Made by a program: the position numbers and the translations under genes | NCBI GenBank assembly: GCA_016212825.1 | Contig: JACRDS010000143.1 | Coordinates: forward strand, 1,712-65,711 | Direction of reading: 5' to 3' | Origin: Elusimicrobiota bacterium | GTDB lineage: Bacteria; Elusimicrobiota; Elusimicrobia; UBA1565; UBA9628 | DNA length: 64,000 nucleotides | Shown here: positions 17,361 to 55,322 of the stretch, piece after piece | Position numbering within the stretch: position 1 is the first letter of the stretch | Layout: the number at the start of each line of letters is the position of its first letter | Notes under the pieces: model-generated | Told to the model about the DNA's origin: nothing | Database searches by the model: none | The model's input: only the letters and a program-made list of their open reading frames with translations

Positions 17361-17369
17361 GAGAACGAT

Positions 17370-32090: not shown

Positions 32091-33139
32091 TGGATATCCA
32101 CCTGGGCCAGGGCGCGGCTGATCACCAGGACCTCGATGATGACCGCGGCGTAGATGCACAAGGCCAGGACGGCGGAGAGCTGGGTGACCAGGAAGGCCAA
32201 AAATCCCAGCAGGGCCGAGACCGCGGCCGAGATCGCCACGATGCGGCCGCGCGTGTAGCCCAGGCGCTCCAGGCGCAAGGCGAAGTGGTCCTTGGAGCCC
32301 AGGAAGGGCGAGTGCCCCTTGCGCAGGCGCAGGAACATGACGAAGAGGGTGTCGTACATGGGGACCAGGAGGATCAGCAGGGGCGCGAACACGCCGAAAT
32401 CGTTGATGTCGCTGTAGCGGGTGCCCAGCGAGGTCCCGGCCAGCAGGAAGCCCAAGGTCATGGCCCCGGAGTCGCCCATGAAGATCTTGCGCTTGGCGGA
32501 GATGTTCCAGGGGATGAAGCCCAAAGCCGCCCCGGCCAGGGCGGCGGAGGCGAAGTTGACGTAGAGCTCCTCGGAGGGCAGGGAGATCATGAGGAAGGCC
32601 AGCGCCGCCGTCATGGCCTGGCTGGAGCTCAGGCCGTCCATGATGTCGATGATGTTGAAGGCATTGGTGATGCCCACTACCCAGAGCAGGCTCAGCGCCG
32701 CCGCCAGGTAGTCCGGCTTCACGAAATTGATGCGGATGCCGAAGGTGAGCAGGCACAGGGCGGCCAGGCACTGCACCGCGAACTTGGGCTTGAAGTGCAG
32801 GCCCTGACCGCCACGGGGCTTCTTGAGGTCGTCGACCACCCCCATGACGAACACCAAGGCCCCGCCCACCATGAGGCCGCGCAGGCTGCGCAGGGTGCCG
32901 GTCGGGAAGCTCGTGAAGAAGCGCAGCAGAAGCAGGGTCGCGGCGTAGCTGGCGAATATGGCCACCCCGCCCAAGGACGGGGTGCTCACCTTATGGGTCT
33001 TGACCGCGGAGGAGGGTTCGTCCATCCAGCCGAAGCGCAGGGCCGCGGCGCGCACCAGCGGAGTGAGCAGGAACGAGAGCCCGGCCGCCGTGCCCACCGC
33101 GATGGCGTAGAGCTTCCAGTTGGCGGCCAGGATCTCCAT
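32087..33139 (-). CDS. polyprenyl-phosphate N-acetylhexosamine-1-phosphate transferase (MraY/WecA family, GT4)
   Basis: 350 aa, about 10 TM helices. DDL motif VVDDLK, NAFNIIDIMDGL, MGDSGA. Confidence 0.88.
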   Translation of the reverse strand: MEILAANWKLYAIAVGTAAGLSFLLTPLVRAAALRFGWMDEPSSAVKTHKVSTPSLGGVAIFASYAATLLLLRFFTSFPTGTLRSLRGLMVGGALVFVMGVVDDLKKPRGGQGLHFKPKFAVQCLAALCLLTFGIRINFVKPDYLAAALSLLWVVGITNAFNIIDIMDGLSSSQAMTAALAFLMISLPSEELYVNFASAALAGAALGFIPWNISAKRKIFMGDSGAMTLGFLLAGTSLGTRYSDINDFGVFAPLLILLVPMYDTLFVMFLRLRKGHSPFLGSKDHFALRLERLGYTRGRIVAISAAVSALLGFLAFLVTQLSAVLALCIYAAVIIEVLVISRALAQVDIH

Positions 33140-33142
33140 AGG

Positions 33143-35155
33143 CTAGCGGAGACGGTAAACGGCGCAGGCCGGGGCCTGGTGCTCCAGCGCCGCGAACCGG
33201 GGCTCCAGGCCCTGCCAGTTGGCCGCGCCCCGCGCGCTGAAGGGGTCCAGGTTGCTGGCGATCCGGCGCGCCTCCCCGGGCATCACTGCGACATGGGTGA
33301 ACCCCTCGCCCTTGAGCCGGGCGGCGTAGCCCCCGGGGCTGGCGGCTTCGTCGGCCCAAGCCCGCCAGCGGTTGGGCGCGTTGACCGTGGTGGCCAGGTT
33401 GTCCTGGCTCCAGTAGTAGGCGCGCTGCTCCCCCACGATGAGGATTCTATCATTTCGCCCGAGACGCTCCCGCGCCCAGGCCGCGCAGGGATAGTAGTCC
33501 AGGCGGCGGGAGAGGAACTCCTCGCGGGTCTCCAGGCCGGAGAGGACCGCGCCGCTGCCGAAGACCGCGTGCGCGTAGAGGAAGACCAGCACGTGCGTCG
33601 CGACCAGGACGCCCGCCCCGGCCGCCAGAAGGGGCCGGGCCCGGCCCTCCAGACGCGTCCACAGGGCGTGCAGGCCGTAGGCGGCCAGCAGGCATAGCAG
33701 CGGCGCCAGGGCGGTCAGGAAGCGTAGGACCACGCCGGTCGCGAACCAGCCCGCGAGGTAGAGGGCGCAGAAGCCCAGCAGCCACCGGGCCGTGCGGTTG
33801 CGCCGGCGCCAGCCGGCCCAGGCCGCCAGGGGCAGGGACCAGAACAGGAGCTCCCAGCCCATGTCGCCCAGCACGTCCATGCCCCCGCCGAAGCGCAGGC
33901 TGTTGCTCAGGAGCTGGACGGGCAGCTCCAGGAGCGCCTTGCCCCAGGCCCCGCCGTGGCGGTACTCCGAGAGCACCGAAAAGTAGCGCCGGGCGCTTTC
34001 CGCGGGCCAGCCCGCGGCCGTGGCCGGGAACCAGCCGTAAAGGAACGGGAAGACAGGGTCGCCCACGAAGAGGGCGTTTTTGACCAGCCAGGGCGAGAAC
34101 ACCAGCGCCGTCACTCCCGCGAACAGGGCCAGGTCCCCCGCGCGCTGCCGCCGCGCCGCCGGCGGCCCCAGGAGCCAGTCCTTGAGCAGGATGAGGGCCA
34201 GGCCGCCGGCCATGAGCCCGGCCGTGTACTTGGCGCCCAGGGCCAGGCCCGCGAAGACCGCCGAGAGCGCCAGCCAGGAGCGCGGGGCGCCCCCGCCCTC
34301 GCGCCGCCAGCGCCAGAACAGGAGCGCCGCCGCCGTGGTCCAGAGCATGACCAGCGGCTCGACGTAGGTCGTGGAGGCCAGCAGCATGACCCCCGTGTGC
34401 GTGGCCAAGAGCAGCGCGGCCAGCAGGCGCGCCGCCACAGGGATCTCCGCTCCGGCCATGGTCCAGATCCAGGCCACGCTCAGGGCCGCGGCCAGCCACA
34501 TGAAGAGCTGGGCCAGCAGGTCGCTGCGCAGGGCCAGGGCCAAAGTGAAGAGCATCTCCCCGTTCTGCGGGAAGTGCGCGTAGACGGACATGCCGGACGC
34601 GGTCAGCCCGCCGGCGCGCAGGTACGCGGCGGGCAGGGCCAGGTGGTAGACCAAAGAGTCGTACTGGTGGGGCGGCACCCAGGCCAGCCAGAAGGTCAGT
34701 CCCAGGGCCGCCAGGACGGCCGCGGCGGCCAGCGGATGCTCGCGCCACTCCTCCGGCGCGCGCAGCCCGGACAGGGCCGCGCGCAGCTCGGAGAATCCCG
34801 CCAGCCACAATCCGCCCAGGACCAGGGCGATGGAGAGCGGGCCCAGCACGCGGCCCGAGGCCAGGCCCAGCACCGCCAGGCTCAGCAGGCCCAGCCCCAA
34901 AGTCATGCCGACCACGGTCTTGGCCCCTTCCTCGGGACCGCGCAGGCCCAGCAGGCCGGCCGCGACCCGGCCGCTGCCCGCCGCGGTCCCCGCGACCAGG
35001 GCCAGGAGCGCGGAAGCGGCCAGGCCCTGGCGCGCCACGGGCCAGAAGAAGCCGGCGGCCGTGGCCAGGCCCAGGACCGCGGTGGCGGCCGCGTAGACCC
35101 CGCCCCAGCGCGCGGATTCCGGTGCGGAGGGGATGGGCGGGCCGGACGGGCTCAT
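33143..35155 (-). CDS. large polytopic membrane protein, candidate GT-C (ArnT/PMT-like) glycosyltransferase
   Basis: 670 aa from MSPSGPP (ATGA overlap with the GT2 stop). At least 12 hydrophobic helices followed by a soluble C-terminal domain of about 170 aa. The assignment rests on architecture only. Confidence 0.55.
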
Positions 35156-35892
35156 CGCGTCTTGGGGCAGAGCCGAGCGGAGCGCACCAGGCCCAGGCGG
35201 TGCAGGACGTACTGCGCCAGGAGGACGAGCGTGGAGAGGCCGTAGACCATGCTGCGCTTGAAGCTGATGGAGGAGGCCTCCGGGAAGTAGCGCACGGCCA
35301 CGGGCACGTCGCCCATGCGGAAGCCCATGCAGGCGGCCTGGATGAGGAACTGCTGGTCGAAGACGAAATCGTCGGAGTTGAGCTCCCAGGGGATGGTCTC
35401 CAGGACCCGGCGCGAGTAGGCGCGCAGGCCGGAGTGCCACTCCCCGAGGTTCTGGCCGGTCATCATGTTCTCGACGATGGTTAGGAAGCGGTTGCTCAGA
35501 TACTTGTAGAAGGGCATGCCGCCCTCCAGGGCCTCCCAGCGCGTGCGGATGCGGTTGCCGCAGACCACGTCGCAGACCCCGGCCTTGATGAGCCCGGTCA
35601 TATGCGGGGCCAGGCGCGCGTCGTACTGGTAGTCGGGGTGGATCATGATGACGATGTCCGCCCCGCGCTTGAGGGCCTCGGTGTAGCAGGTCTTCTGGTT
35701 GCCTCCGTAGCCGCGGTTCTTGGGGTGCACGAAGACGGCCAGCCCCAGCCTGCGCGCCAGCTCCGCGGTGCCGTCCCGGGAGGCGTCGTCGACCAGGATG
35801 ACCTCGTCCACGCAGCCGGACGGGATGTCCCGGAGGGTCTTCTCCAGGGTCTTCTCCGCGTTGTAGGCCGGCAGGACCGCGATGGTCTTCAT
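35152..35892 (-). CDS. GT2 polyprenyl-phosphate glycosyltransferase (DPM1/ArnC-like)
   Basis: 246 aa. [31 protein letters not shown] (DxD-type). TAGAAT box 9 nt upstream of the ATG. Confidence 0.88.
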
Positions 35893-35919
35893 TCCGGCGC
35901 TATTCTACCACTTCGCGCG

Positions 35920-37125
35920 TTAGAACGTGTACGAGAAGCCCAGCAGGTGGCTGGAGAGCTGGTAGTTGTAGCGGTAGGTCTTCTCGTAGCGCATGTTGGA
36001 ACTGGCGTCCGTGAGGGTGGTGTGGGCCAGGGCCTTGAAGCCGTGGGCGAGGGGCAGGGACAGGTCGAAGGTGAAGGAGCCCTGGTCCAGGCGCGTGGAC
36101 TCGTTGAGGTAGGTCCCGGAGGCGTCCTGCGCGGCCCGGCCCAGGTAGTCGCGCCACACCTGCAGGTAGCCGACCGCGAGCTCGACCTTCTTCTCCCCGA
36201 GGATCATGGTCAGCTTGGGATAGAGCGAACGCTCGTCATACGAGTAGTACTGTCCGAGGAAGCGGGCCTGCTCCGCGTCGTAGTGGTTCTGGTTCGAGGC
36301 GTCGCGCAGCTGGGTGAACTCCAGGGACAGGTAGCCGCCGACCCTGGGCGCCAGGGCGCGGCCGTAGCTCAGGGCCGCGGAGACGGAGCTGAAGTCGTCG
36401 GCGCGCGTGTCGTCGGCGAGGCTCCCCGAGGCCTGGACCACGTGCTGCTCCGGATAGCCCCGCCGCGTGAAGTTGCCGGTGAGCCGGGCCGCGCCGCCCT
36501 CGAAGGGCAGGGGGAAGTGCCCGGTCAGGGTCCAGGAATAGCTGCGCGAGTCCAAGGTCCGGCCCTCGGCGAGTTCGCGGCCCAGGCCGGGCAGCGCCTG
36601 CGACTCCAGGCTCCGGTAGTTGGGGAACTGGATCTCGTAGTAGTCGAAGGCGGCGCCGGCCCGGACGCGCTCGCCGAAGGCGCGCTCCACCTCCAGGCCG
36701 GCCGAGGGCTTGCGGTAGTCGAAGAGCCCCTTGCCCCAGCCCTCGTCGCTGGTCTCGCGCAGCAGCTCCCAACGGTAGCCCAGAGACGGCTTGACCTTCC
36801 ACTCGTCGCGCTTCCAGACGCCCTTCAGGCTCAGGGCGTGGCTCTGGCTGTCCTGGAAGAGCTGCCCCCCGCTGCCCAGGTCCACGGCGCTCTTGGTGCC
36901 CCGGTAGGTGCCGTAGTAGGTCGGGATGAGCCCGAGCTCGTCCGTGAACTTGACCGCCGGGGTGAACTGCAGGGCGGCATTGCCCTGCCAGGAGCTGGCC
37001 TTGCCGCCCTGCAGGACTTGCCCCATCAGGAAGGAGGCGTCGAAGACCGGGACCCAGTCCACGGCGCCGGCCGGAGCGGCCGCGCCCAGGGCCAGGACCA
37101 GCGATGCCGCGAAACGCCTCATCAT
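35920..37125 (-). CDS. unassigned outer-membrane beta-barrel protein
   Basis: 401 aa from MMRRFAASLVLALGAAAPAGA. Pervasive alternating aromatic/aliphatic strands. Terminal ...LLGFSYTF OMP signature. 4 nt after the PorV-like gene. Confidence 0.55.
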   Translation of the reverse strand: MMRRFAASLVLALGAAAPAGAVDWVPVFDASFLMGQVLQGGKASSWQGNAALQFTPAVKFTDELGLIPTYYGTYRGTKSAVDLGSGGQLFQDSQSHALSLKGVWKRDEWKVKPSLGYRWELLRETSDEGWGKGLFDYRKPSAGLEVERAFGERVRAGAAFDYYEIQFPNYRSLESQALPGLGRELAEGRTLDSRSYSWTLTGHFPLPFEGGAARLTGNFTRRGYPEQHVVQASGSLADDTRADDFSSVSAALSYGRALAPRVGGYLSLEFTQLRDASNQNHYDAEQARFLGQYYSYDERSLYPKLTMILGEKKVELAVGYLQVWRDYLGRAAQDASGTYLNESTRLDQGSFTFDLSLPLAHGFKALAHTTLTDASSNMRYEKTYRYNYQLSSHLLGFSYTF

Positions 37126-37129
37126 GATG

Positions 37130-38047
37130 TCATCGGTCCGAGTCGCGGCCTCCGCCGAAGCGGTAGCCCACGGCGAAATGGTGCGTGCTCCCCAGGTCGC
37201 CGGCCGGGTTGAAGGCGTAGTCGATGTCCACGCTGTCTTTGACGCGCAGGCCGAGGCCGATCCTGAGGCCGCCGAAGTTGCCGAGGTCCGGCGTCCGGGT
37301 GTTGACTCCCAGGCGGAACGCGGCCGCGCCGACGTCCTTGACGGCGAGCTCGTACTCGCTGCCGATGGCCACGTAGGCCGGGTCATAGACCGGGATGACC
37401 GCGTCCAGGGCCAGCCACCAGTGCTCCATGGCCCGCCAAGCCGCGCCGGCCGCGGCCCGGGTCGGCAGGGGCCGGCCCTCGCTCTCGTAGCGCAAAGAGC
37501 CGCCGATGTTGTGCCCGGAAGCGGCCAGGATCCAGTCCTCACCGAGGCGGTACTGGCCGCCCGCGTCGAAGGTCAGGGTCCGGGCGCTCGCCACGATCTT
37601 GGAGTCCACGTACTTCGCGGTGGCCCCCAGGTCAGCGCCCAAAGCGTCCGTGCCGTAGGTGAAGCCGTAGACCGTGTCGCTGGGTCCGTAGGTGCCGGTC
37701 TCGGTCCCCTGCTCGTCGCGGCTCTCCAGGGTCCCGTAGCCCACGTGGTGGAAGCTGGCGCCCAGGTGGTGCCGCCCGAGGGTCAACCCGTAGCCGGCGT
37801 AGTCGCTGCCGACGCCCGCGTAGAGGAAGGAGTGCGTGAAATAGGCGTGATTGGAGCGCACGCCCCCGATGGCCGCGGGGTTGGACGCCACTGCGCCCGC
37901 GCCGGAGGCCAGGGCCTGGGCGGCCTCGCCCATGCCCAGGGCGCGCACGTCGAGGGGCAGGCTGAGGAAGTCGGCGGAGGCGGGCCGGGCCGCCCGGGCC
38001 CAGGGGGCCAGGAGGACCAGGAGTCCGGCCAGGACCGTTCGCCTCAT
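37130..38047 (-). CDS. PorV/PorQ-like outer-membrane barrel
   Basis: 305 aa with a signal peptide. N-terminal FLSLPLDVRALGMGEAAQALASGAGAVASNPAAIG, which I recognise as the PorV/PorQ (UPF0164-like) signature. ATGA overlap with the giant gene's stop. Confidence 0.55.
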   Translation of the reverse strand: MRRTVLAGLLVLLAPWARAARPASADFLSLPLDVRALGMGEAAQALASGAGAVASNPAAIGGVRSNHAYFTHSFLYAGVGSDYAGYGLTLGRHHLGASFHHVGYGTLESRDEQGTETGTYGPSDTVYGFTYGTDALGADLGATAKYVDSKIVASARTLTFDAGGQYRLGEDWILAASGHNIGGSLRYESEGRPLPTRAAAGAAWRAMEHWWLALDAVIPVYDPAYVAIGSEYELAVKDVGAAAFRLGVNTRTPDLGNFGGLRIGLGLRVKDSVDIDYAFNPAGDLGSTHHFAVGYRFGGGRDSDR

Positions 38048-41000
38048 CTTTGCACCGCGAACTTGAGCTTGCGCATGCTGCCGCCCGACTTGACCACCGC
38101 GATATAGACCCCGCTGGGCAGGGCCTTGCCGTCGATGTCGTTGCCGTCCCAGGAGAGGATGTCGCCGGCGGCGTCCGCGTCGAGCTCCTTAAGGAGCCGT
38201 CCCGAGACGGAGAACACCTTGACGTGCGCCCCGGCGGGCAGGCGCGAGAACTTGATGCGGGCGTGCCCGGCTCCGGGCCGGAAGGGGCTGGGATAGACGA
38301 TGCCGGCGGAGAGGTCTCCGGCCGGGGCTGCGGCCACCACCATGAAGATGGAGAAGTGGCTGGTCACGCCGGAGACCTTGCGGGAGACGGGGTCTACCGT
38401 GGACTCGAGCATGGTCCAGCCGGCGGCCGCGTCGTAGCGGACCATGCGCAGGAGGTTGACGTCGAGGCCGGCGACATCGGCCGGCTTGTAGCCGATGTTC
38501 ACCGTCACCGGAGCCACGGGCTGCTGTCCGTCCGTGGTGTTGATGGCCACCGCCAGGCCCGTGCCGCTCCAGGCGTTGCGGGCCGGCAGGCTGGGCAGGC
38601 CGGAGGCGGCGGGGACGCTGAGCTGCAGGTTGGTGGCCGAGGCGAAGGCTCCGAAGGGGACGATCACCTCGGCGGTGGCGCCGGAGGCCAGGGCCGTGGT
38701 CACGGTGCCGCTGGAGGTGGAGGTCAGGGGCGTGAAGGAGGGCGCGCCCAGCACATAGAGGCCGTTGGGGTCCTTGACCTGGGCCGTGACCTTGCGCGTG
38801 GCGACATCGGCGAGATTGGCGCCGTCGAGCACCATCTCGAAGAGGGAGGTGGCCCCGTTGAGGCGGTAGACCCGCAGCACCGAGAGGGGCACGAGCAGGC
38901 TCTGGCCGCTCAGGGAGGCTCCCACCAGCACGTTGCTGGAGGCGTCGGCGGTGAAGGGCAGGGCCAGGGACACCAGCTGGTTGGCGTCTCCGGGGGAGGA
39001 GTTCGGGCTGGAGTCCAGGACCGCGGCGAAGCGGGCGGTCATGGTGGAGATGAAGGTGTTGGGCGAGCGGGCGAAGGCGGTGGTGGACAGGGCCACGTCC
39101 GCGGCCGAGAGCTCGGCCTGGGACTGGGCGCTGAGGCGCACGCTGGCGCCGTAGGCGTTGGCAGGCACCACCACGGTGACCGCGGGGTTGGCCAGGCTCA
39201 CGATGGTGCCGCCCGCGGAGGTGATGAGCACCGCGTTGTAGACCGTGGTATCCGACATGAGGCCGCCGATGCCGGCGCGCAGGAGGTCGGCCTGGGAGCT
39301 GACGCTGTTGGTGCTGGCGAAGAAGGCCTGGGCCTGGCCGTTGCTGCCGGTCACCACGTCGGTGGAGGTCACGGCCGAGGGCAAAGCGCCGATGACCACG
39401 GCCACGGTGCCCGAGCCTCTCTGCAAGGAGAAGGTGACGGTGGCGCCCTGCACCGCGTTGGAGTAGAGGTCGAGGACCGCGGCGGTCAGCACCGAGGGAA
39501 CGGAGGCCACGGTGGACTGGGGGTTGGCGGAGAGGGAGAGGCTGGCGGGAGGCCCGGCCCGGACCGCGGTGTTGGTGGAGGTCACGGTGACGATGCCGAT
39601 GCCGGAGTCGGAGACGCGCAGCTTGACGGTCTCGGCCTTGGTATAGGTCTGGAAGGAGGTGGAGCCCACGCCGGCGGCGATGTTGAGGCTGGTGATGCCC
39701 AGGGTGCCGGCGCCGGAGAGGCTGGGATTGGAGGCCTGGACCGCGGCCAGGTTGACGGTGCCGCTGTATCCGGTCACGGTGCTGGAGGAGGCGTCGCGCG
39801 CCACCACGGTCATCTGGTAGTTGACCCCGGCCTGCGCGGCCGTGGGGATGCCCACGTCGAAGAAGGTGGGGCCGGTGAGGGAGAGGTTGGCGGAATCGCC
39901 GGTCTTGGCGTCCTCGTCGGTGGCGCGCAGGACGATGGTCTCGATCTTGTTGTAGGTCTGGGCGCCGACGATGACGTAGGTGGAGCCGGCCACGAGGGTG
40001 GCGGCGGAGCTGCCCAAGGACCCGCTGCCCGCGACCATGGTGGGCGGCAGCAGGGCCTGGATGTTGAGGCTGCGGTTGAGGGAGTAGGTCACGGGAGCAT
40101 TCGCGGCGTCCCGGGCGTTGATCTGCATGGCGAAGGGCAGGCCGACCGTGACCGAAGCGGGGGCGGTGATGACGTAGTGGTCGATGGTGAGCGCCGGCGT
40201 GGTCACGGTCATGGAACTTGAATAGCCGTCCACGGCCAGGGCCGAGTCGTAGGCGCGGATGCGGATGCCGCCGCCCTTGTTGTAGGCTTCGTTGTTGATG
40301 ACCACCTTGCCCGAGGAGGGGATGTTGACGTTGGTGACGGAGAGGGCGCCCGAGGCCGCGGTGGCCGTGTCGTTCCAGACCACGGGGGTCAAAGAGAGGG
40401 TGCCGGAGTAGCCAGCCAGCTGGTTGTTGTACTGGTCCACGGCCGTGATGGTGGCGGAGAACACGGCTCCGGCCGCGGAGCCGGTGGGGATGGCGATGTT
40501 GAAGTGGTGGGGGCCCAGGACGTCGAGGTTGTCGGAGACGCCGTACTTGCCGTCGGAAGGCCGGACGACCTTGATCTGGATGGCCTCGATCTTGTTGTAG
40601 GTCTGGTTGGGGATGACGTAGCTTCCGGTCGTGGTCGCGGGAGGCGGGAAGGTGAAGGAGTTCGTGCCCAGCGTGCCCAGGCCCTGGACCTGGGTGCCGG
40701 AGATGAGCGGCACGAGGTTGTGGGTCCCCGCGTTGGCATCGTATTTTGGCAGGATGTGGTTGTATTTGTTGCGCGCGGTGAAGGTGCTGGAGAAGGATAT
40801 CCCCACGGCTACGGCGGTCGGGACCGTGACCGTGAAATTATCCAAGAGGTTGCTTTCCAGGCTCAGGGTCGGCGTGGACGGAGCGATGTCGAGGCTTACG
40901 ATCGGCACGCTGGTCACGTGGTCGTCGTAGTTGTCGTAGCGATTGTTGGCGCAGCGGCGCAGGTCTACGAGGAAACGCGCCTGGCCGGAGGCGTCGGTGT

Positions 41001-43170
41001 AAGCCAGCAAGCCTGCGTCGGCCCGGAAACAGCTGCCCGAGGCGCCATAATCGGAATTGGTGTCCTTGAACCAGAAGGTCTTGTTCTGCGGGATGAAGGA
41101 CAGGCCGATCATGGTGTAGGGCACCGTGCTCCAGGCCGCGTCCCAGGCCGTGACCGTCATGGTGGCGAAGCCCACGTCCGGCTGAATCATGGGCGTGGAG
41201 AAGGCCACCGTGAAGGAGGAGGTGCGGATCTCGCGCACGTCGAGGTCCTGCGGGGCCAGGCCGAGAGCGTAGGCGCGCACCGTGGCCGAGAAATCCTCAT
41301 ATTCATCCGCATCCGCGGCCCAATCTGGGAACCTCAGGCGCAGCACGTAGCGGGCCTGCCCCGTGGAGTCGGTCAGGCTGTAGTTGCCCGCCGGGCTTAT
41401 GGACTGGGTCAGGCCCGACACATTGGAGGACAGGTAATCCAAGGCCACCGGATAGCCCGGCACGCGGCCGCCGGTGGAGTTGCTCACCGTGAAGGTCAAG
41501 GTCGTCACGCGCATGAAATAGGAGCCGTAATCCTCGACGAACGGCGTGGAGAGCGCCACCGTGTAGGTGGACGCCCGGACATCCTCCTGGACCACGGTGA
41601 CGTCCGGGAAGCCGATGGGCCGCAGCGTGATGGTGCTGGAGTAGGCTTCCCAGGAGGAGTGCGCAAGGATGCTGAGATCGGTCTTGAGCGCGAGGCTGAC
41701 CCGGCCGTTGCTGTCCGCCGCATAGGTGGTCTGGGCCCCGCTGGGATCCGAACCCTCTGTCACGGTCATGAAGGTATTGGGCGCCGGGGTCCAGCTCTGC
41801 CGGAGGACGATCGCTCCGGGAGCCGGGCCCGCAACCGCGTCCGTGAATCTCGCCGTGACGGTCGCGACCCAGAGGTTGCCCTCAAACGACGGCCAGGCCG
41901 AGGTGGTGACCGCGACCGCCGCGGCTCCGGAATCTCCCACGGCAATCAAACGACGGTCCGTGCTCTGGCGCCACACCAGCGCGTAGACCACGCCGGCGGT
42001 GCTGATGGCCAGCCCGCCCGCCCCCGGGCTCTCGCCGCTGACGAAAATGTTGGTCATGTCCATGCGCCAACGCTGGCTGCCGGAGGCGGCGTCGAGGTTG
42101 ACCAATGTGCCGTTGTTCACATAGAACAGCGTCGTCCCCAGCAGCAGCGGCGGATGGACTTGCGGTCCGACCACGCCTGTCTCGGTCCAGGCCAGGCTCC
42201 CGTTGCTCTTGTCCAGCGCCACGAAGCGGTCGTTGTTCGGCACGAAGACGTACGCCGAGGAGACCGCGGGCGCGAACGGGGTGCCGCTGAAACTCGCGGC
42301 CGAGGTCCAGGAGGTCGCTCCGGTGAGGAGGTTGACGCGTATCAGGTTCCGCGGGGAGAAGCCTTTGTAGGTGTAGACGGTGTCGTCCGGGTCCACCGAG
42401 ACGGCCCCATAGTCGGAGCCTGATCCTTGCGATAGGATTGGGGCGCCGCCGGCGGCCGTCACGGACTGGAGGTCCGTGCAGCTAAACGAACGGTCCTTAT
42501 AGAAAACCGTGGCCAAGTCATTAGATAGCGCAGGAGTCCCGGTCCCAGTCCCCGCGCATTCCATTCTTTTCCAATTGACCGCCCCGTTCGGTGTGATGGA
42601 GTAGGCATACGTGCCCAATGTTTCCAGCAGACGATCGCTCCTATCGCCTACATACAGATTTCCATCCCGTCCGATCACCACCGGCCCCCCCGGAAACGCC
42701 GTGGGGGTGCCGCCTTGCCGGGGATCGAGCTGCCAGACGGTGTTCCCCGTATCCGTGGAGAGCGCCACCACGCTGTTCTGGCTGCTGACGTACACCTTCC
42801 CGTCATCGGAGACGGCGGGCTGGGACAGCGCGCCGTACGTCGGGGTGACCCACTTCGTCGTGCCGTCGGGATTGATCGCCCAGACCCGGTCATACCCCGT
42901 CGCATAGACGGATCCGTCCGGGCCGATGGACGGACCGTAGCGCGGCCAGAACGGTTCATTGCCGGTGGCGCAGCAGCTATAGTCCCCGGAGCTGTTAAGA
43001 GTCACGGACCAGAGCAGCTTGGGATTGCGGAACAGTGTTCCCGGGATCGTGGTCGAACTCGTGTGCTGCGCGTCGTGCCGGAACATGGGCCACGGCGTGT
43101 TCGCCGGTCCCAACGCCTGCGCCGGCAGGGCGAGGGCCAGGAGCGTCCCGACGAGCATCGCGCGCCTCAC
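38044..43170 (-). CDS. giant secreted protein: PQQ-like beta-propeller, two families of Ig-like repeats, a Big_1-like domain, and a T9SS-type/FlgD-Ig-like C-terminal domain
   Basis: About 1708 aa. GTG at 43170 (GTGA overlap) gives the signal peptide MRRAMLVGTLLALALPAQALG; the alternative ATG is at 43158. Propeller blades: DGSVYATGYDRVWAINPDGTTKW, DGKVYVSSQNSVVALSTDTGNTVW. C-terminal domain (nt 38047-38307): VYPSPFRPG...AHVKVFSVSGRLLKEL...LSWDGNDIDGKALPSGVYIAVV...KLKFAV. Confidence 0.8.
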   Translation of the reverse strand: MRRAMLVGTLLALALPAQALGPANTPWPMFRHDAQHTSSTTIPGTLFRNPKLLWSVTLNSSGDYSCCATGNEPFWPRYGPSIGPDGSVYATGYDRVWAINPDGTTKWVTPTYGALSQPAVSDDGKVYVSSQNSVVALSTDTGNTVWQLDPRQGGTPTAFPGGPVVIGRDGNLYVGDRSDRLLETLGTYAYSITPNGAVNWKRMECAGTGTGTPALSNDLATVFYKDRSFSCTDLQSVTAAGGAPILSQGSGSDYGAVSVDPDDTVYTYKGFSPRNLIRVNLLTGATSWTSAASFSGTPFAPAVSSAYVFVPNNDRFVALDKSNGSLAWTETGVVGPQVHPPLLLGTTLFYVNNGTLVNLDAASGSQRWRMDMTNIFVSGESPGAGGLAISTAGVVYALVWRQSTDRRLIAVGDSGAAAVAVTTSAWPSFEGNLWVATVTARFTDAVAGPAPGAIVLRQSWTPAPNTFMTVTEGSDPSGAQTTYAADSNGRVSLALKTDLSILAHSSWEAYSSTITLRPIGFPDVTVVQEDVRASTYTVALSTPFVEDYGSYFMRVTTLTFTVSNSTGGRVPGYPVALDYLSSNVSGLTQSISPAGNYSLTDSTGQARYVLRLRFPDWAADADEYEDFSATVRAYALGLAPQDLDVREIRTSSFTVAFSTPMIQPDVGFATMTVTAWDAAWSTVPYTMIGLSFIPQNKTFWFKDTNSDYGASGSCFRADAGLLAYTDASGQARFLVDLRRCANNRYDNYDDHVTSVPIVSLDIAPSTPTLSLESNLLDNFTVTVPTAVAVGISFSSTFTARNKYNHILPKYDANAGTHNLVPLISGTQVQGLGTLGTNSFTFPPPATTTGSYVIPNQTYNKIEAIQIKVVRPSDGKYGVSDNLDVLGPHHFNIAIPTGSAAGAVFSATITAVDQYNNQLAGYSGTLSLTPVVWNDTATAASGALSVTNVNIPSSGKVVINNEAYNKGGGIRIRAYDSALAVDGYSSSMTVTTPALTIDHYVITAPASVTVGLPFAMQINARDAANAPVTYSLNRSLNIQALLPPTMVAGSGSLGSSAATLVAGSTYVIVGAQTYNKIETIVLRATDEDAKTGDSANLSLTGPTFFDVGIPTAAQAGVNYQMTVVARDASSSTVTGYSGTVNLAAVQASNPSLSGAGTLGITSLNIAAGVGSTSFQTYTKAETVKLRVSDSGIGIVTVTSTNTAVRAGPPASLSLSANPQSTVASVPSVLTAAVLDLYSNAVQGATVTFSLQRGSGTVAVVIGALPSAVTSTDVVTGSNGQAQAFFASTNSVSSQADLLRAGIGGLMSDTTVYNAVLITSAGGTIVSLANPAVTVVVPANAYGASVRLSAQSQAELSAADVALSTTAFARSPNTFISTMTARFAAVLDSSPNSSPGDANQLVSLALPFTADASSNVLVGASLSGQSLLVPLSVLRVYRLNGATSLFEMVLDGANLADVATRKVTAQVKDPNGLYVLGAPSFTPLTSTSSGTVTTALASGATAEVIVPFGAFASATNLQLSVPAASGLPSLPARNAWSGTGLAVAINTTDGQQPVAPVTVNIGYKPADVAGLDVNLLRMVRYDAAAGWTMLESTVDPVSRKVSGVTSHFSIFMVVAAAPAGDLSAGIVYPSPFRPGAGHARIKFSRLPAGAHVKVFSVSGRLLKELDADAAGDILSWDGNDIDGKALPSGVYIAVVKSGGSMRKLKFAVQR
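39565..40839 (-). repeat. four ~105-aa Ig-like modules inside the giant gene
   Basis: Each module ends with a (Q/E)(T/A)Y(N/T)K.E(T/A)(I/V) signature: NQTYNKIEAIQIKV, NEAYNKGGGIRIRA, AQTYNKIETIVLRA, FQTYTKAETVKLRV. A 21-nt exact repeat tcgatcttgttgtaggtctgg occurs at 40586-40606 and 39941-39961. Confidence 0.8.
40840..41916 (-). repeat. three ~115-aa modules of a second repeat family inside the giant gene
   Basis: The modules share ...TVA(L/F)STP...., D(S/A)(T/S/N)G(Q/R)(A/V)R(Y/F/S).L.L: ADSNGRVSLALK, TDSTGQARYVLRLR, TDASGQARFLVDLR. Confidence 0.65.
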
Positions 43171-44807
43171 GGGATGACCCCCGACTGCACCAGGATGGCC
43201 GGCGAGACCACCAGGTCGATGGTCCGGCCGCCGAACTCGGAGGCCGTGATCACCTGCTCGTAGTTCCACTTGAGCAAGGTCTTCTTATAGTTCTCCCCCG
43301 AGGTCACGCCGTTGAAGTCCGCGCTGGTGGCGATGTTGCCCGCGTCGCCCACCACGTAGAAGTCGTACTTCTCCCAGGTCCCGTCCGAGTATGTGATGCT
43401 GGCCCGGTCGTGCAGGCGCGAGGCCCCCTGCGGATTGGTGATGGAACTCGGCCGCGCCGCGTCCTCGCAGGCTTGGGCGGTGCAGTTCACCGGCCCCACC
43501 GCGCAGCCCGCGGCCCCGCAGGCCGCCCCCCCGCCCAGGATGCGGGTCTGGAAGCCCGTGGCCACGTAGTCGTAGGCCGTGATGTTGGGCGCGCCGGCCG
43601 GCTGCCAGCCGTACTTCTCCGTCCCGTTTATCTTATAGGAATAGTCGTCGAAGAGCGTGCTCCAGAAGGCCGTGCCCGCGGCCACGGTGCGGAAGGAGTT
43701 GGCGTCCGGATCGTAGATCGCGCGGTCCTCGCCCAGGAGCGTGTTGACCAGATGCCCGCCCGTCGCGTTCTCCCGGATGGAGTCCACGGTGTTGGAGCGC
43801 CCGGTCTCGAAGGCCGTGATGAAATAGTCCGGCGCCGCGCCGGTCTTGCCGTTGAGGTAGCGCAGGGCCGGGGCCAGTTCCACGGGCAGGGCCTGGTTGA
43901 AGCGGGCCTGGTAGTAGAAGTAGTTGAAGCTGCTCTCGCGTTCGTTGAGGGCCACGAATTTGAACTGGTCCGCGGCCGGGCGCACGATGTACTGCTCCAG
44001 GCGCACCCGCTGGCCGCCCACGTCGATCATGGTCTTGCCTTCCTGATACTCGGCCAGACGCGCCTCGACCGCGGCCGCGGACTGCACCGCCTCCTTGGCC
44101 AGCCCCAGAGCCACCTCGCGGCGCACGTCCTTCTTGAAATCCTCGTTGTCCAGGTCGGCCGCGACGGGCCGGGCTTCCTGGGCCCGCATCCGGGCCGGTT
44201 CCTTCTTCGCCGGAGGCGCGGCGGCCCGGGCGCCGGAGTATTCCAGCGGCCGGTCGGGCAGGACGCGCAGGCTGCGCGCGGCGCGGCCGTCGCCGATCTC
44301 GAGCTCCTCTCCCAGGAGCGTCTTGACCGCCACCACGCCCTCCATGACCTCCACGTTCATCTCGCTCTTGTCGTTGATGTCCACCACGAACTCGGTGCCG
44401 CGCACCGAGCAGACCGCCGCCGGGGTCTTCACCGTGAAGCGCTTGTTCGCGGCCGAGAGGGCCTTGCGCACCCAGGAGTGGATGACGCCCAGGTCCAGGA
44501 AGACGGCGCCGCCCCGCTGGTCGGCCTCGCTCAGGACGAAGCTGGTGTTGGGCCCCATCTTGATGCGGGAGCCGTCCGGGAAGGTCACCGTGGCCGCGGA
44601 CTGCAGGCCGGTTCGGATGCGGTCCTTGGCCTCCAGGCGGTAGGGCACGTTGGAGATGACGCGCCAGGCCCCGCTGTCGCGGAAGCTCACCTCGACGTGG
44701 CCGGAACGCTCGGTCACGTCCGCCTGGGCGCACAGAAGGGCGGGCAGGAGCGGCACGAGGCCCAGGGCGACGAGGAGACGCAGACCCGCGGCGGCAGTCC
44801 CAGGCAC
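43167..44807 (-). CDS. secreted FecR-domain protein with an unassigned Cys-containing C-terminal domain of about 300 aa
   Basis: 546 aa. GTG start, signal peptide. FecR signature LEAKDRIRTGLQSAATVTFPDGSRIKMGPNTSFVL......FTVKTPAAVCSVRGTEFVV. Confidence 0.75.
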   Translation of the reverse strand: MPGTAAAGLRLLVALGLVPLLPALLCAQADVTERSGHVEVSFRDSGAWRVISNVPYRLEAKDRIRTGLQSAATVTFPDGSRIKMGPNTSFVLSEADQRGGAVFLDLGVIHSWVRKALSAANKRFTVKTPAAVCSVRGTEFVVDINDKSEMNVEVMEGVVAVKTLLGEELEIGDGRAARSLRVLPDRPLEYSGARAAAPPAKKEPARMRAQEARPVAADLDNEDFKKDVRREVALGLAKEAVQSAAAVEARLAEYQEGKTMIDVGGQRVRLEQYIVRPAADQFKFVALNERESSFNYFYYQARFNQALPVELAPALRYLNGKTGAAPDYFITAFETGRSNTVDSIRENATGGHLVNTLLGEDRAIYDPDANSFRTVAAGTAFWSTLFDDYSYKINGTEKYGWQPAGAPNITAYDYVATGFQTRILGGGAACGAAGCAVGPVNCTAQACEDAARPSSITNPQGASRLHDRASITYSDGTWEKYDFYVVGDAGNIATSADFNGVTSGENYKKTLLKWNYEQVITASEFGGRTIDLVVSPAILVQSGVIP

Positions 44808-44813
44808 AAATTC

Positions 44814-44839
44814 CAGTATAAGAGGAATCCCCTATACTG
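44814..44839 (-). promoter_or_regulatory. operator-like inverted repeat overlapping the -35 and -10 elements
   Basis: CAGTATA (44839..44833), 12 nt, TATACTG (44820..44814): perfect 7-bp arms. Confidence 0.5.
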
Positions 44840-44843
44840 TCAA
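44815..44843 (-). promoter_or_regulatory. consensus sigma70-type promoter, apparently leaderless
   Basis: Minus strand: TTGACA (44843..44838), a 17-nt spacer, TATACT (44820..44815), 7 nt, then the GTG start at 44807. A second TTGACA lies immediately upstream (44849..44844). Confidence 0.7.
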
Positions 44844-44873
44844 TGTCAAAACGGTTACAGGATGCCGGATGGC

Positions 44874-54633: not shown

Positions 54634-55322
54634 CCCAGACCCCCAGCATCCTCGTCCCGGCCGGGGAGTTTTGGATGGGGTCTCCCGAAGGCGAAGGACA
54701 CGACGACGAACGCCCCCGCCATCGCGTGCGCCTGCGCGCCTTCCTCCTGGACCAGCACCCGGTCACCGCGGCCCGGTTCGTGGAGTTCTGCCGGGCCGCC
54801 GGGCGCCCCTTCCCGGGACAGCCCTCCTGGAGCGGGGACGACCATCCCGTGGTCAACGTGAGCTGGGAAGACGCCCGCGCCTGCTGCGCCTGGGACGGCG
54901 GCCGCCTGCCCACGGAGGCGGAGTGGGAGCGCGCGGCGCGCGCGGGGACGGAGACCCGCTACCCCTTCGGGGACGACGAGAGCCGGCTTGGGGAGCACGC
55001 CTGGTTCCGGGACAACTCCGGCCGGCAGACCCAGCCCGTGGCGCGCAAGGCTCCCAACCCCTTCGGGCTCTACGACATGCTGGGCAACGTGTGGGAGTGG
55101 GTCGCGGATTGGTACGGGCCGGGCTACTACGCGGCCAGCCCGGAGCAGGACCCGCGCGGCCCGGGAGCCGGCTCCTGGCGCGTCATGCGCGGCGGCTCCT
55201 GGAGCCTCTTCGACGTGCTCTGCCGGCCGGCCGCGCGCAACCGACTGGCGCCGAAACTCCGAGGCCTCAATCTGGGCTTCCGTTGCGCGCGGGACGCGGA
55301 GCCCCGCTCCGGCGGGGATTGA
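54630..55322 (+). CDS. FGE-sulfatase (SUMF1-like) domain protein
   Basis: 230 aa. GTG start (GTGA overlap). FWMGS, RLPTEAEWERAAR, LGNVWEWVADWY, RVMRGGSW, LGFRCARD. Confidence 0.85.
   Translation: MTQTPSILVPAGEFWMGSPEGEGHDDERPRHRVRLRAFLLDQHPVTAARFVEFCRAAGRPFPGQPSWSGDDHPVVNVSWEDARACCAWDGGRLPTEAEWERAARAGTETRYPFGDDESRLGEHAWFRDNSGRQTQPVARKAPNPFGLYDMLGNVWEWVADWYGPGYYAASPEQDPRGPGAGSWRVMRGGSWSLFDVLCRPAARNRLAPKLRGLNLGFRCARDAEPRSGGD

What the first reader, a model, noticed from the sequence alone, without database searches (positions are those of the whole stretch)
35920..44849. Self-contained operon: secreted FecR-domain protein, ~1700-aa propeller/Ig-repeat protein with a T9SS-type C-terminal domain, a PorV-like barrel and an extra unassigned barrel
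Four co-directional genes are packed with a GTGA overlap (43167-43170), an ATGA overlap (38044-38047) and a 4-nt gap (37126-37129). They sit behind the only textbook sigma70 promoter in the window.

The genes are:
1. A signal peptide plus FecR domain, fused to a ~300-aa Cys-containing region I cannot assign.
2. A giant protein with a PQQ-like beta-propeller, 3+4 Ig-like modules, a Big_1-like domain and an ~85-aa C-terminus. That C-terminus carries the T9SS CTD/FlgD-Ig signature (VYPSPF...VKVFSVSGRLLKEL...WDGNDIDGKALPSGVYIAVV...KLKF).
3. A barrel with the FL.LP.DVRALGMGEA...SNPAA N-terminus that I associate with PorV/PorQ.
4. A 401-aa barrel ending in YTF.

In the described Bacteroidota T9SS, PorV shuttles CTD cargo, but it is not normally encoded as a cassette with one cargo, a FecR-domain protein and a second barrel. 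No porK/L/M/N, sprA/sov or porU-like gene is present in these 64 kb. This could be a minimal or divergent cargo-plus-shuttle surface-display module. It is my best candidate for an undescribed system here.
Basis: partly seen in the sequence, partly recalled or inferred. Interest (0 to 1): 0.7.

Follow-up and report, generated by a model that had tools for sequence, protein, structure and literature searches.

The report
Elusimicrobial giant-adhesin surface-display gene module
Four tightly packed genes (a secreted FecR-fold protein, a 1,708-residue surface protein with a type-IX-style C-terminal tag, a PorQ/PorV-like barrel and a new 16-strand barrel) form a module that recurs, often in several copies per genome, across the phylum Elusimicrobiota, so it is probably an undescribed way of putting giant adhesins on the cell surface.

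Summary
Four co-directional minus-strand genes (43167-44807, 38044-43170, 37130-38047, 35920-37125) sit behind the only near-consensus sigma-70 promoter in the window.

HMMs confirm a FecR domain, a PQQ-like propeller, a T9SS type-A C-terminal domain (CTD) just above cut-off, and a PorV/PorQ-family barrel. AlphaFold2 shows the fourth protein is a confident 16-strand barrel with no specific structural relative.

The window comes from an Elusimicrobia MAG. In 84 related loci:
- the FecR protein (G1) and the new barrel (G4) sit in the same module in all 73 informative loci;
- in most loci with enough downstream sequence they are followed by a giant ORF with a variable body;
- every giant whose end is visible carries the CTD and is followed at once by the PorQ-like barrel (21/21).

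The CTDs best match those of PorZ and PorU, which P. gingivalis keeps and docks on PorQ/PorV. One Elusimicrobia protein is a G1-G4 fusion.

TXSScan found no known secretion system in the two reference Elusimicrobia genomes. I found no paper on this module.

Most likely this is a dedicated surface-display system. The CTD-to-barrel anchoring rests on homology; a translocon role for G1-G4 is inferred. I could not test whether a canonical T9SS is absent from this genome.

The parts
44815..44843 (-). Sigma-70-like promoter TTGACA-17-TATACT. The -10 element ends 7 nt before the G1 GTG start, so the transcript may be leaderless.
   Evidence: It is the only match of 11/12 or better in the 64 kb.
43167..44807 (-). 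G1: secreted 546-aa protein. It has a signal peptide, a FecR-fold domain, a disordered linker and a conserved ~315-aa C-terminal domain of unknown fold.
   Evidence: The family has more than 209 members, and every member that carries a taxon name is Elusimicrobia.
44331..44624 (-). FecR domain of G1 (residues 62-159; the AF2 beta domain spans 29-182).
   Evidence: Pfam PF04773, 69.1 bits. Foldseek match to the PupR C-terminal signalling domain 6ovk_R, E = 6e-6, rmsd 2.4 A.
43170..44117 (-). G1 C-terminal domain (residues ~231-546). This is the part that always accompanies the G4 barrel.
   Evidence: No Pfam or PDB match. In L089 it occurs without the FecR domain next to a G4-like barrel. In P0333 it is fused to G4.
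38044..43170 (-). G2: 1,708-aa Sec-exported surface protein (the cargo).
42028..43017 (-). PQQ/BamB-like beta-propeller region of G2 (residues ~52-381).
   Evidence: PF13360, 67.7 bits. BamB models give partial hits.
40837..41922 (-). Two to three tandem ~117-aa modules of G2 (residues 417-778).
   Evidence: Pairwise local alignments against shuffles give z = 12.6 and 4.7.
39550..40836 (-). Four tandem ~107-aa modules of G2 (residues 779-1207).
   Evidence: z = 8-19.
38047..38319 (-). C-terminal domain (CTD) of G2 (residues 1618-1708), of the T9SS type-A / FlgD-Ig kind.
   Evidence: TIGR04183: 25.1 bits on the whole protein and 29.5 bits on the domain alone, against a cut-off of 23. The PorZ model gives 38.9 bits over its CTD. 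The best PDB hit is the PorZ CTD, 5m11, E = 3.9e-6. The C-terminal ~120-190 aa, ending in this domain, is the only region shared by all the giants.
37130..38047 (-). G3: 305-aa PorV/PorQ-family outer-membrane barrel, translationally coupled to G2.
   Evidence: NF033709, 117.1 bits against a cut-off of 90. PorQ scores 77.5 and PorV 22.2. It follows the CTD-bearing giant in 21 of 21 cases.
35920..37125 (-). G4: 401-aa 16-strand outer-membrane barrel of a new family, ending in YTF.
   Evidence: No Pfam or NCBIfam hit. AF2 pLDDT 89.5. Only generic barrel matches, TM <= 0.48. 513 clusters in 1.84 billion representatives. Inferred outward loops are the most conserved part.

Best explanation
This is one copy of a multi-copy outer-membrane module, found so far almost only in Elusimicrobiota, that places giant, variable adhesin- or fibre-like proteins on the cell surface.

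**Shown by sequence, homology and gene context**
- All four products carry signal peptides.
- The giant (G2) ends in a T9SS-type CTD that most resembles the CTDs of PorZ and PorU. Those two CTDs are not cut off.
- G3 is a PorV/PorQ-family barrel, always encoded directly after the CTD-bearing gene.
- G1 and G4 are always in the same module, usually overlapping. In one lineage they are fused.

**Inferred mechanism**
1. The giant crosses the inner membrane by Sec.
2. Its CTD docks non-covalently on its own PorQ-like barrel G3. This tethers it to the surface, as PorZ is tethered on PorQ and PorU on PorV.
3. G1 is a periplasmic subunit. The fusion places it at the periplasmic N-terminus of the barrel. 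It binds G4 through its conserved C-terminal domain.
4. The G1-G4 complex supplies the outer-membrane step that SprA and the PorKLMN machinery supply in Bacteroidota. That step is passage or assembly of the giant across the outer membrane, probably as an unfolded chain as in type V secretion.

The anchoring half of this model (step 2) rests on homology. The translocon half (step 4) rests only on genomic association.
For: **Domain and family assignments**
- FecR, PQQ_2, TIGR04183 and NF033709 assignments for G1-G3 come.
- Twelve of 12 family CTDs hit the PorZ CTD, 11 of 12 the PorU CTD and 9 of 12 TIGR04183.
- The best PDB hit for the G2 CTD is the PorZ CTD, 5m11.
- PorU and PorZ keep their CTDs and are anchored by PorV and PorQ (PMC5562754).

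**Conservation of the module**
- Three gene orders are seen: G1-giant-G3-G4, G1-G4-giant-G3 and giant-G3-G1-G4.
- G4 accompanies G1 in all 73 informative loci. G3 follows the CTD-bearing giant in 21 of 21 cases.
- There are 352 G1 relatives in GTDB species genomes. The top 80 are all labelled Elusimicrobiota or left unclassified, with 2-3 copies in several MAGs.
- Only the C-terminal ~120-190 aa is shared among the giants. Their bodies vary: propellers, beta-helix, fn3, FG-GAP and fibre-like domains.

**Evidence that G1 and G4 act together**
- P0333 is a G1-G4 fusion that lacks the barrel's signal peptide.
- In L089 the G1 C-domain alone is paired with a G4-like barrel.
- G4 is a confident 16-strand barrel. 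Its inferred outward loops are its most conserved part: 0.69, against 0.51 for strands and 0.38 for turns.

**Background**
No known secretion system of any type was detected in E. minutum or Endomicrobium Rs-D17 (PMC4793230 Table S3).
Against: - No experiment and no complex prediction supports any physical contact.
- A 16-strand barrel can pass only an unfolded chain. Nothing shows that G4 conducts protein.
- I could not search this genome, or any complete Elusimicrobiota genome, for SprA, PorKLMN or PorU. A canonical translocon elsewhere is therefore not excluded.
- The TIGR04183 score is only just above cut-off, and the Pfam CTD models are below theirs.
- Some G1-G4 loci (Elusimicrobiaceae-like L044, L057, L075) show adhesin- or fibre-like genes but no detectable CTD or G3 within 10 kb.
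- Most giants run off the fetched flank. CTD plus G3 is therefore verified for only about a quarter of the loci.
- CTD-protein/G3-like pairs also occur without G1-G4 nearby (L088).
Confidence: 0.55

Rival explanations
1. This is an ordinary T9SS cargo locus. The genome encodes a canonical T9SS elsewhere. G3 is a PorV/PorQ paralogue serving that system, and G1-G4 are bystanders or accessories.
For: The CTD and G3 belong to T9SS-associated families. The genome outside the 64 kb was not searchable.
Against: - No T9SS core gene was found among 34 scanned window ORFs. The only hit is a sub-threshold GldK match of an FGE-domain protein, 85.9 bits against a cut-off of 350.
- TXSScan found T9SS only in Bacteroidetes and nothing in the two Elusimicrobia genomes.
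- Literature searches for Elusimicrobia with T9SS or PorV found nothing relevant.
- G1-G4 are linked to the giants in all 73 informative loci, which bystanders would not be.
Confidence: 0.12
2. G1-G4 is a sensing or regulatory device in the style of FecR cell-surface signalling. The barrel senses an external cue, G1 relays it in the periplasm, and this controls expression or deployment of the adjacent adhesin. It is not an export machine.
For: The G1 N-domain has the PupR/FecR signalling-domain fold. An ECF sigma factor and a small possible anti-sigma gene precede the G1C/G4-like pair in L089. An ECF sigma plus zf-HC2 gene lies near L001.
Against: - G1 has a cleavable signal peptide and no cytoplasmic anti-sigma domain or membrane anchor (by inspection).
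- G4 has no plug or STN domain.
- Most loci, including the window, have no adjacent ECF sigma.
- The FecR domain is dispensable in L089, whereas the C-domain is not.
Confidence: 0.1
3. G4 is a solute or polymer channel and G1 is its periplasmic partner. Together they import what the giant surface protein captures, or export a glycan, rather than handling the protein itself.
For: The G4 fold resembles porins and polysaccharide exporters (chitoporin, PgaA, AlgE, PelB) at a generic level. Glycosyltransferase genes follow G4 in the window.
Against: - Those structural matches are weak (TM <= 0.48) and non-specific.
- The glycosyltransferase neighbours are not conserved in relatives.
- Cargo bodies vary widely while G1-G4 stay constant, which fits a generic handling role better than a substrate-specific channel.
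Confidence: 0.1
4. G1 itself is exported through, or displayed by, G4 in an autotransporter-like way. On this view G1 is a surface adhesin, like the leptospiral FecR-domain proteins, independent of the giant.
For: - Some G4 proteins carry 300-550-aa N-terminal beta-helix-like or fn3 extensions, an arrangement of passenger plus barrel.
- G1 hits Leptospira Lsa33 and LipL45 models over the FecR region.
Against: - Those NCBIfam hits are far below cut-off (51.8 against 420).
- The N-extended G4 genes still have a separate G1 upstream and a giant downstream.
- This reading does not explain the constant linkage to the giants.
Confidence: 0.08

Closest known systems
T9SS attachment sub-complexes PorZ-PorQ and PorU-PorV of Porphyromonas gingivalis
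   Same: A secreted protein with an uncleaved type-A-like CTD is held on the cell surface by a PorV/PorQ-family barrel. The CTDs here score best against the PorZ and PorU CTDs, and G3 scores best against PorQ. G2, like PorZ, begins with a beta-propeller.
   Different: - The pair is encoded as an overlapping gene couple, one barrel per cargo, in several copies per genome.
- The cargo is a giant variable adhesin, not a machinery component.
- G3 fails the PorQ and PorV equivalog cut-offs (77.5 against 220; 22.2 against 250).
- No SprA, PorKLMN or PorU is seen nearby.
- The host phylum lies outside Bacteroidota.
SprB-SprF and other type-B CTD / PorP-like pairs of Bacteroidota (Gorasia et al. 2022, PMC9143113, cited from the reference list and from my own knowledge)
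   Same: A giant repetitive adhesin gene is followed at once by the gene for its dedicated outer-membrane barrel, which anchors it.
   Different: The CTD here is type-A/FlgD-Ig-like, not type B. The barrel is PorV/PorQ family, not PorP/SprF: the only PorP hit was 19 bits, for a relative. Those Bacteroidota pairs depend on a full T9SS.
FecR/PupR anti-sigma regulators of cell-surface signalling
   Same: The G1 N-domain has the same fold as the periplasmic PupR C-terminal signalling domain and passes Pfam FecR.
   Different: G1 has no anti-sigma domain, no transmembrane anchor, no partner TonB-dependent transducer and usually no adjacent ECF sigma. It carries an unrelated ~315-aa C-domain that is the conserved partner of a barrel.
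Two-partner secretion (type Vb): TpsB (POTRA domains plus 16-strand barrel) exporting giant TpsA adhesins
   Same: A 16-strand barrel plus a periplasmic module sits next to a giant adhesin gene. The G1-G4 fusion (P0333) mimics the layout of a periplasmic domain followed by a barrel.
   Different: There are no POTRA, Omp85 or ShlB signatures. The giants have no N-terminal TPS domain; the conserved signal is C-terminal. This is an analogy only.

Membership tests
Type IX secretion system (Bacteroidota T9SS) | Cargo carries a type-A (TIGR04183) or type-B C-terminal sorting domain | tested here: met
   TIGR04183 scores 25.1 bits on G2 and 29.5 bits on the isolated CTD, against a cut-off of 23. Nine of 12 family CTDs match it. 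Pfam PF18962 and PF13860 are below their cut-offs.
Type IX secretion system (Bacteroidota T9SS) | [quoted passage not shown] | tested here: inconclusive
   The family-level model NF033709 is met (117.1 against 90). The equivalog models are not met: PorQ 77.5 against 220, PorV 22.2 against 250, PorV2 37.3 against 325.
Type IX secretion system (Bacteroidota T9SS) | SprA/Sov translocon | not testable with these tools
   None was found among 34 window ORFs scanned. The rest of the genome could not be searched. TXSScan reported no T9SS in the two reference Elusimicrobia genomes.
Type IX secretion system (Bacteroidota T9SS) | PorL/M motor and PorK/N ring (GldKLMN) | not testable with these tools
   There is no hit in the window except an FGE-sulfatase-domain ORF (54471-55322). 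It matches GldK at 85.9 bits against a cut-off of 350, which reflects a shared domain rather than PorK. A genome-wide search was not possible.
Type IX secretion system (Bacteroidota T9SS) | PorU sortase that removes the CTD and attaches A-LPS | not testable with these tools
   None was found in the window. The CTDs resemble the non-cleaved PorU and PorZ CTDs.
PorZ-PorQ type CTD-to-barrel anchoring pair | CTD of the retained (PorZ/PorU) kind paired with a PorV/PorQ-family barrel | tested here: met
   Twelve of 12 CTDs hit the PorZ CTD region and 11 of 12 the PorU CTD. The PDB hit is 5m11, E = 3.9e-6. G3 lies directly downstream of the CTD-bearing gene in 21 of 21 cases.
PorZ-PorQ type CTD-to-barrel anchoring pair | Physical binding of the uncleaved CTD to the barrel at the cell surface | not testable with these tools
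   This needs complex prediction or biochemistry.
FecR/PupR anti-sigma factor (cell-surface signalling) | Periplasmic FecR domain | tested here: met
   PF04773 scores 69.1 bits. Foldseek matches 6ovk_R, 4m0n and 4m0h.
FecR/PupR anti-sigma factor (cell-surface signalling) | N-terminal cytoplasmic anti-sigma domain and a transmembrane helix; partner ECF sigma and TonB-dependent transducer | tested here: not met
   The G1 sequence starts with a signal peptide, and the first strand of the FecR-fold beta domain begins at residue 29. The neighbouring genes are a decarboxylase, a saccharopine dehydrogenase and glycosyltransferases.
Two-partner secretion / Omp85 (type Vb) | POTRA domains plus an Omp85-type 16-strand barrel; TPS domain at the cargo N-terminus | tested here: not met
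   G4 has 16 strands but no Pfam or NCBIfam Omp85 or ShlB hit. The cargo N-termini are not conserved.

The most novel reading that the evidence does not exclude
G1 (FecR fold plus a new C-domain) and G4 (a new 16-strand barrel) together form a previously unrecognised outer-membrane protein translocon. It would be a new secretion-system type that exports giant CTD-tagged adhesins in Elusimicrobiota, a phylum in which no known outer-membrane secretion system was detected. On this reading the CTD/PorQ-like barrel couple is a free-standing, possibly ancestral anchoring unit that Bacteroidota built into the T9SS.
Probability: 0.25. Interest if true: 0.9.

Novelty: new variant of a known kind. Interest (0 to 1): 0.72.

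Why it matters
- Elusimicrobiota are diderms. A systematic survey found no known protein secretion system in either of the two genomes it examined, yet these bacteria encode many giant surface proteins.
- A conserved, multi-copy four-part module next to those genes is a concrete candidate for how the proteins reach and stay on the surface.
- T9SS-type sorting domains and PorQ/PorV-like barrels work here as self-standing cargo-anchor couples outside Bacteroidota. This bears on how the T9SS attachment machinery evolved.
- Two families with no Pfam or NCBIfam model, the G1 C-domain and the G4 barrel, gain a testable functional context. Cultured relatives (Elusimicrobium minutum, Endomicrobium proavitum) could be used for experiments if they carry the module, which I did not verify.

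Tried and rejected
- **BLASTP self-comparison of G2** found no repeats. Local alignment of hand-delimited modules against shuffles did find them.
- **All-vs-all clustering of six-frame ORFs** from the 84 loci was swamped by antisense and alternate-frame shadow ORFs of these 50-70% GC genomes. I replaced it with HMM tagging and a greedy ORF map.
- **Iterating my CTD and G3 HMMs** added no members.
- **The word-indexed homologue search with G3** returned only 11 proteins. The context of its distant hit P0188 showed no linkage to cargo.
- **Foldseek for G4** gave only generic barrels. For the G1 C-domain it gave nothing credible. A short match to the MpIBP 'cell surface anchoring domain' 5ix9 (E = 0.059, 63 columns) could not be placed on the sequence and was not used.
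- **G3 against PDB sequences** gave no hit.
- **The flanking glycosyltransferase and polyamine genes** were tested as possible module members and rejected. They have no counterpart in any related locus.
- **Seven literature searches** found no description of this module or of T9SS parts in Elusimicrobia.
- **Chance adjacency** was rejected on the conservation counts.
Full report
**1. What is in the window**

The window is about 70% G+C. Its 401-aa barrel protein is 100% identical to NCBI 'HY926_12820 [Elusimicrobia bacterium]'. All four genes lie on the minus strand:

| Gene | Coordinates | Length |
|---|---|---|
| G1 | 43167-44807 | 546 aa |
| G2 | 38044-43170 | 1,708 aa |
| G3 | 37130-38047 | 305 aa |
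| G4 | 35920-37125 | 401 aa |

- A TTGACA-17-TATACT element lies at 44843-44815. It is the only sigma-70 match of 11/12 or better in the 64 kb.
- The -10 element ends 7 nt before the G1 GTG start, so the transcript may be leaderless.
- By inspection, each product begins with a signal-peptide-like segment.
- G4 ends in YTF. G3 ends in an FAVGYRF motif followed by a short tail.

**2. Identity of the parts**

- **G1.** It passes Pfam FecR at 69.1 bits over residues 62-159.
  - The AlphaFold2 model (pLDDT 84.6) shows a beta domain at 29-182, a disordered linker, two helices and a beta-rich C-domain at 254-546.
  - Foldseek matches the N-domain to the PupR/FecR C-terminal signalling domain (6ovk_R, E = 6e-6, rmsd 2.4 A).
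  - Foldseek finds nothing credible for the C-domain.
- **G2.** It has a PQQ_2/BamB-like propeller (67.7 bits).
  - It contains 2-3 tandem ~117-aa modules and 4 tandem ~107-aa modules (z up to 19).
  - Its C-terminal domain passes TIGR04183 narrowly: 25.1 bits on the protein and 29.5 bits on the domain, against a cut-off of 23. It fails the two Pfam CTD models.
  - The best PDB sequence match for the CTD is the CTD of P. gingivalis PorZ (5m11, E = 3.9e-6).
- **G3.** It passes the NCBIfam PorV/PorQ family model full length, at 117.1 bits against a cut-off of 90. Among the equivalogs it is nearest to PorQ (77.5 bits), with PorV at 22.2. Both are below their cut-offs.
- **G4.** It has no Pfam or NCBIfam hit.
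  - Its AlphaFold2 model is confident (pLDDT 89.5, pTM 0.83) and shows a 16-strand barrel with short turns on one side and long loops on the other.
  - Foldseek returns only generic barrels (TM <= 0.48).

**3. Surroundings**

- Upstream lie an ornithine/DAP decarboxylase, a saccharopine dehydrogenase, a TPR protein and MetH.
- Downstream, only 15 nt after the G4 stop, come a GT2 glycosyltransferase, a PMT_2-like gene and a GT4 gene. There is no terminator-like site between G4 and GT2.
- These neighbours have no counterpart in any related locus. They are not part of the module, though they may be co-transcribed here.
- Thirty further window ORFs are housekeeping or unassigned: ATP synthase, RecA, XerD, thiolases, signal peptidase I, QueC and others.
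- None is SprA, PorK/L/M/N or PorU. An FGE-sulfatase-domain ORF gives a sub-threshold GldK hit, 85.9 bits against a cut-off of 350.

**4. Comparative evidence**

*Family sizes and taxonomy*
- G4 homologues number 57 in the word-indexed search. All named ones are Elusimicrobia.
- A profile search of 1.84 billion representatives finds 513 clusters.
- Named members of those clusters are Elusimicrobia, except one 3-kb contig labelled Omnitrophota.
- G1 homologues number more than 209. All named ones are Elusimicrobia or Endomicrobiia.
- Scanning one genome per GTDB species found 352 G1 relatives.
- All 80 best loci are Elusimicrobiota or unclassified 'bacterium' MAGs. Several MAGs contribute 2-3 loci.

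*Linkage of the genes*

I tagged six-frame ORFs of 84 loci with HMMs built from my alignments.
- G4 lies directly after G1 in 62 loci.
- It lies directly after G1 with an N-terminal extension in about 4 loci, and directly before G1 in 1.
- It is separated from G1 by giant plus G3 in the 5 loci of the window's own clade.
- In three more loci of that clade the contig ends inside the giant, and in four there is too little downstream sequence.
- In total, all 73 informative loci have both genes.
- In most loci with enough downstream sequence a giant same-strand ORF follows G1-G4. It is often longer than 2,800 aa and runs off the 10-kb flank.
- Wherever a CTD-bearing ORF has downstream sequence, G3 follows at once (21/21).
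- Three gene orders occur: G1-giant-G3-G4, G1-G4-giant-G3 and giant-G3-G1-G4.
- NCBIfam confirms the PorV/PorQ assignment and the CTD in independent loci.

*The cargo*
- The giants share only their last ~120-190 residues.
- Their bodies differ: propellers, right-handed beta-helix, fn3, FG-GAP and UspA1-like repeats.
- Some loci add smaller fibre-like genes with Peptidase_S74, MAT-fibre or Lcl-like ends.
- All 12 sampled CTDs hit the CTD region of PorZ, 11 of 12 that of PorU, and 9 of 12 TIGR04183.

**5. Clues to how G1 and G4 work**

- P0333 (NCBI MBD3272334, Elusimicrobia) is an in-frame G1-G4 fusion.
  - A linker with no hydrophobic signal-like segment replaces the barrel's signal peptide.
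  - This argues for physical association. It also places G1 at the barrel's N-terminus, which in outer-membrane barrels is periplasmic (established knowledge).
- In L089 a 354-aa protein made only of the G1 C-domain sits next to a G4-like barrel. The C-domain, not the FecR domain, is therefore the constant partner.
- Some G4 proteins carry N-terminal beta-helix-like or fn3 extensions. They still have G1 upstream and a giant downstream.
- In G4 the long loops are the most conserved regions. I infer they are extracellular from the short-turn/long-loop rule.
  - Mean conservation is 0.69 for loops, 0.51 for strands and 0.38 for turns.
  - This is the opposite of what I would expect for porins (my own knowledge). 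It suggests a conserved protein interface or an in-barrel fold.

**6. Mechanism proposed**

- *Supported by homology.* The CTD docks on the adjacent PorQ-like barrel and tethers the giant to the surface. In P. gingivalis, PorZ and PorU keep their CTDs and are anchored by PorQ and PorV (PMC5562754).
- *Inferred.* G1, a periplasmic subunit, and G4, a barrel, form a complex that carries out the outer-membrane passage or assembly step. The chain would probably be unfolded, because a 16-strand barrel cannot pass folded domains.
- I put about 0.55 on the overall surface-display reading and about 0.25 on G1-G4 being a true translocon.
- The rivals are a canonical T9SS elsewhere, a FecR-style sensor, a solute or glycan channel, and autotransporter-like display of G1. 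Each is listed with its evidence in the rival explanations.

**7. Comparison with known systems**

- The module shares two families with the T9SS, the type-A-like CTD and the PorV/PorQ family. It most resembles the PorZ-PorQ/PorU-PorV anchoring couples.
- In gene layout it resembles SprB-SprF (PMC9143113).
- It is not shown to be a T9SS. The translocon, motor, ring and sortase were not found in the window and could not be searched genome-wide.
- TXSScan found T9SS only in Bacteroidetes. It found no secretion system of any kind in Elusimicrobium minutum Pei191 or Endomicrobium Rs-D17. Its authors noted that novel systems may remain in such clades (PMC4793230).
- G1 fails the anti-sigma definition, because it has no cytoplasmic domain or anchor.
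- G4 fails the Omp85/TpsB definition.
- Seven literature searches found no description of this module.

**8. Verdict**

It is refined in three respects:
  - the invariant core is G1-G4 plus a giant;
  - G3 looks like an anchor of the PorQ kind rather than a shuttle;
  - the operon is probably not self-contained.
- Novelty: a new variant of a known kind, meaning T9SS-type CTD/barrel anchoring joined to a new two-protein outer-membrane unit. There is a real chance that it is a new secretion pathway.
- Interest: 0.72.

Noticed in passing
window 44807-44843 (-): The -10 hexamer TATACT ends 7 nt before the G1 GTG start and no Shine-Dalgarno sequence fits in between, so the operon mRNA may be leaderless. 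The -35 hexamer is duplicated in tandem (TTGACATTGACA).
   Followed up: partly
window 32087-35904 (-): Three glycosyltransferase-type genes (GT2, PMT_2/ArnT-like, GT4/WecA-like) start 15 nt after the G4 stop with no terminator-like site. They may be co-transcribed and could glycosylate a surface product. They are not conserved next to the module in relatives.
   Followed up: partly
window 54471-55322 (+): A 283-aa FGE-sulfatase-domain protein gives partial hits to SenA, EgtB, PvdO and to T9SS GldK/PorK (85.9 bits against a cut-off of 350). This reflects a shared domain and is not evidence of a PorK ring.
   Followed up: partly
P0333 (NCBI MBD3272334.1, Elusimicrobia; 2.5-kb contig): A natural in-frame fusion of the FecR protein (G1) to the G4 barrel. 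A linker with no hydrophobic signal-like segment replaces the barrel's signal peptide.
   Followed up: partly
L085 3570-6410, L086 1851-3965; also L044, L057, L058, L075: G4 variants with 300-550-aa N-terminal extensions made of repeated beta-helix-like units (motif W.G....AS.A.NW..G..P..GD.V.F), or with an fn3 domain (P0194). They still have a FecR gene upstream and a giant gene downstream.
   Followed up: partly
L089 7575-12203: A divergent mini-version: ECF sigma factor, a 172-aa ORF, a 354-aa protein made only of the G1 C-domain (no FecR domain), a G4-like barrel and a 328-aa beta-rich protein. No giant lies nearby.
   Followed up: partly
L088 1-4639: On a contig of unknown taxon, two tandem G3-like (PorV/UPF0164) barrels are flanked by two small CTD-bearing proteins, one with FG-GAP plus FlgD_ig. 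No G1 or G4 is visible. The CTD-barrel couple can therefore exist on its own.
   Followed up: partly
L003, L004, L048, L042 and many other loci, ~4-9 kb upstream of G1: One paralogous G1-G4-giant locus sits in conserved synteny just downstream of dnaK-dnaJ, rpsU, dnaG, rpoD, a response regulator and an MscS-like gene in many Elusimicrobiota. This hints at an old, vertically inherited 'primary' copy.
   Followed up: no
L049 (CALRXP010000032.1): This contig is labelled 'Candidatus Endomicrobium trichonymphae' but has 66% G+C. From my own knowledge that is far above what this genus shows, so the taxonomic label of the MAG looks doubtful.
   Followed up: no
G1 model m94a996c3a095 (window 43167-44807): Foldseek lists a short match (63 columns, rmsd 1.6 A, TM 0.71 on the target, E = 0.059) to PDB 5ix9, deposited as 'Cell surface anchoring domain'. 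From memory I believe this is from the Marinomonas ice-binding adhesin. I could not locate the matching segment in G1.
   Followed up: no
L015 12771-14564; L075 14545-15783; L044 16431-19746; L057 6924-10172: Smaller genes between G4 and the giants look like trimeric fibre or adhesin proteins: a Peptidase_S74 intramolecular chaperone domain, a Bdellovibrio MAT-fibre N-domain, Lcl/FimD-like C-ends and choice-of-anchor-Z repeats.
   Followed up: partly
window 17361-18323 (+): A 320-aa ORF gives a weak CpaB (Flp pilus assembly) hit, 25.9 bits against a cut-off of 71. This may be a remnant or distant relative of a Tad pilus gene.
   Followed up: no
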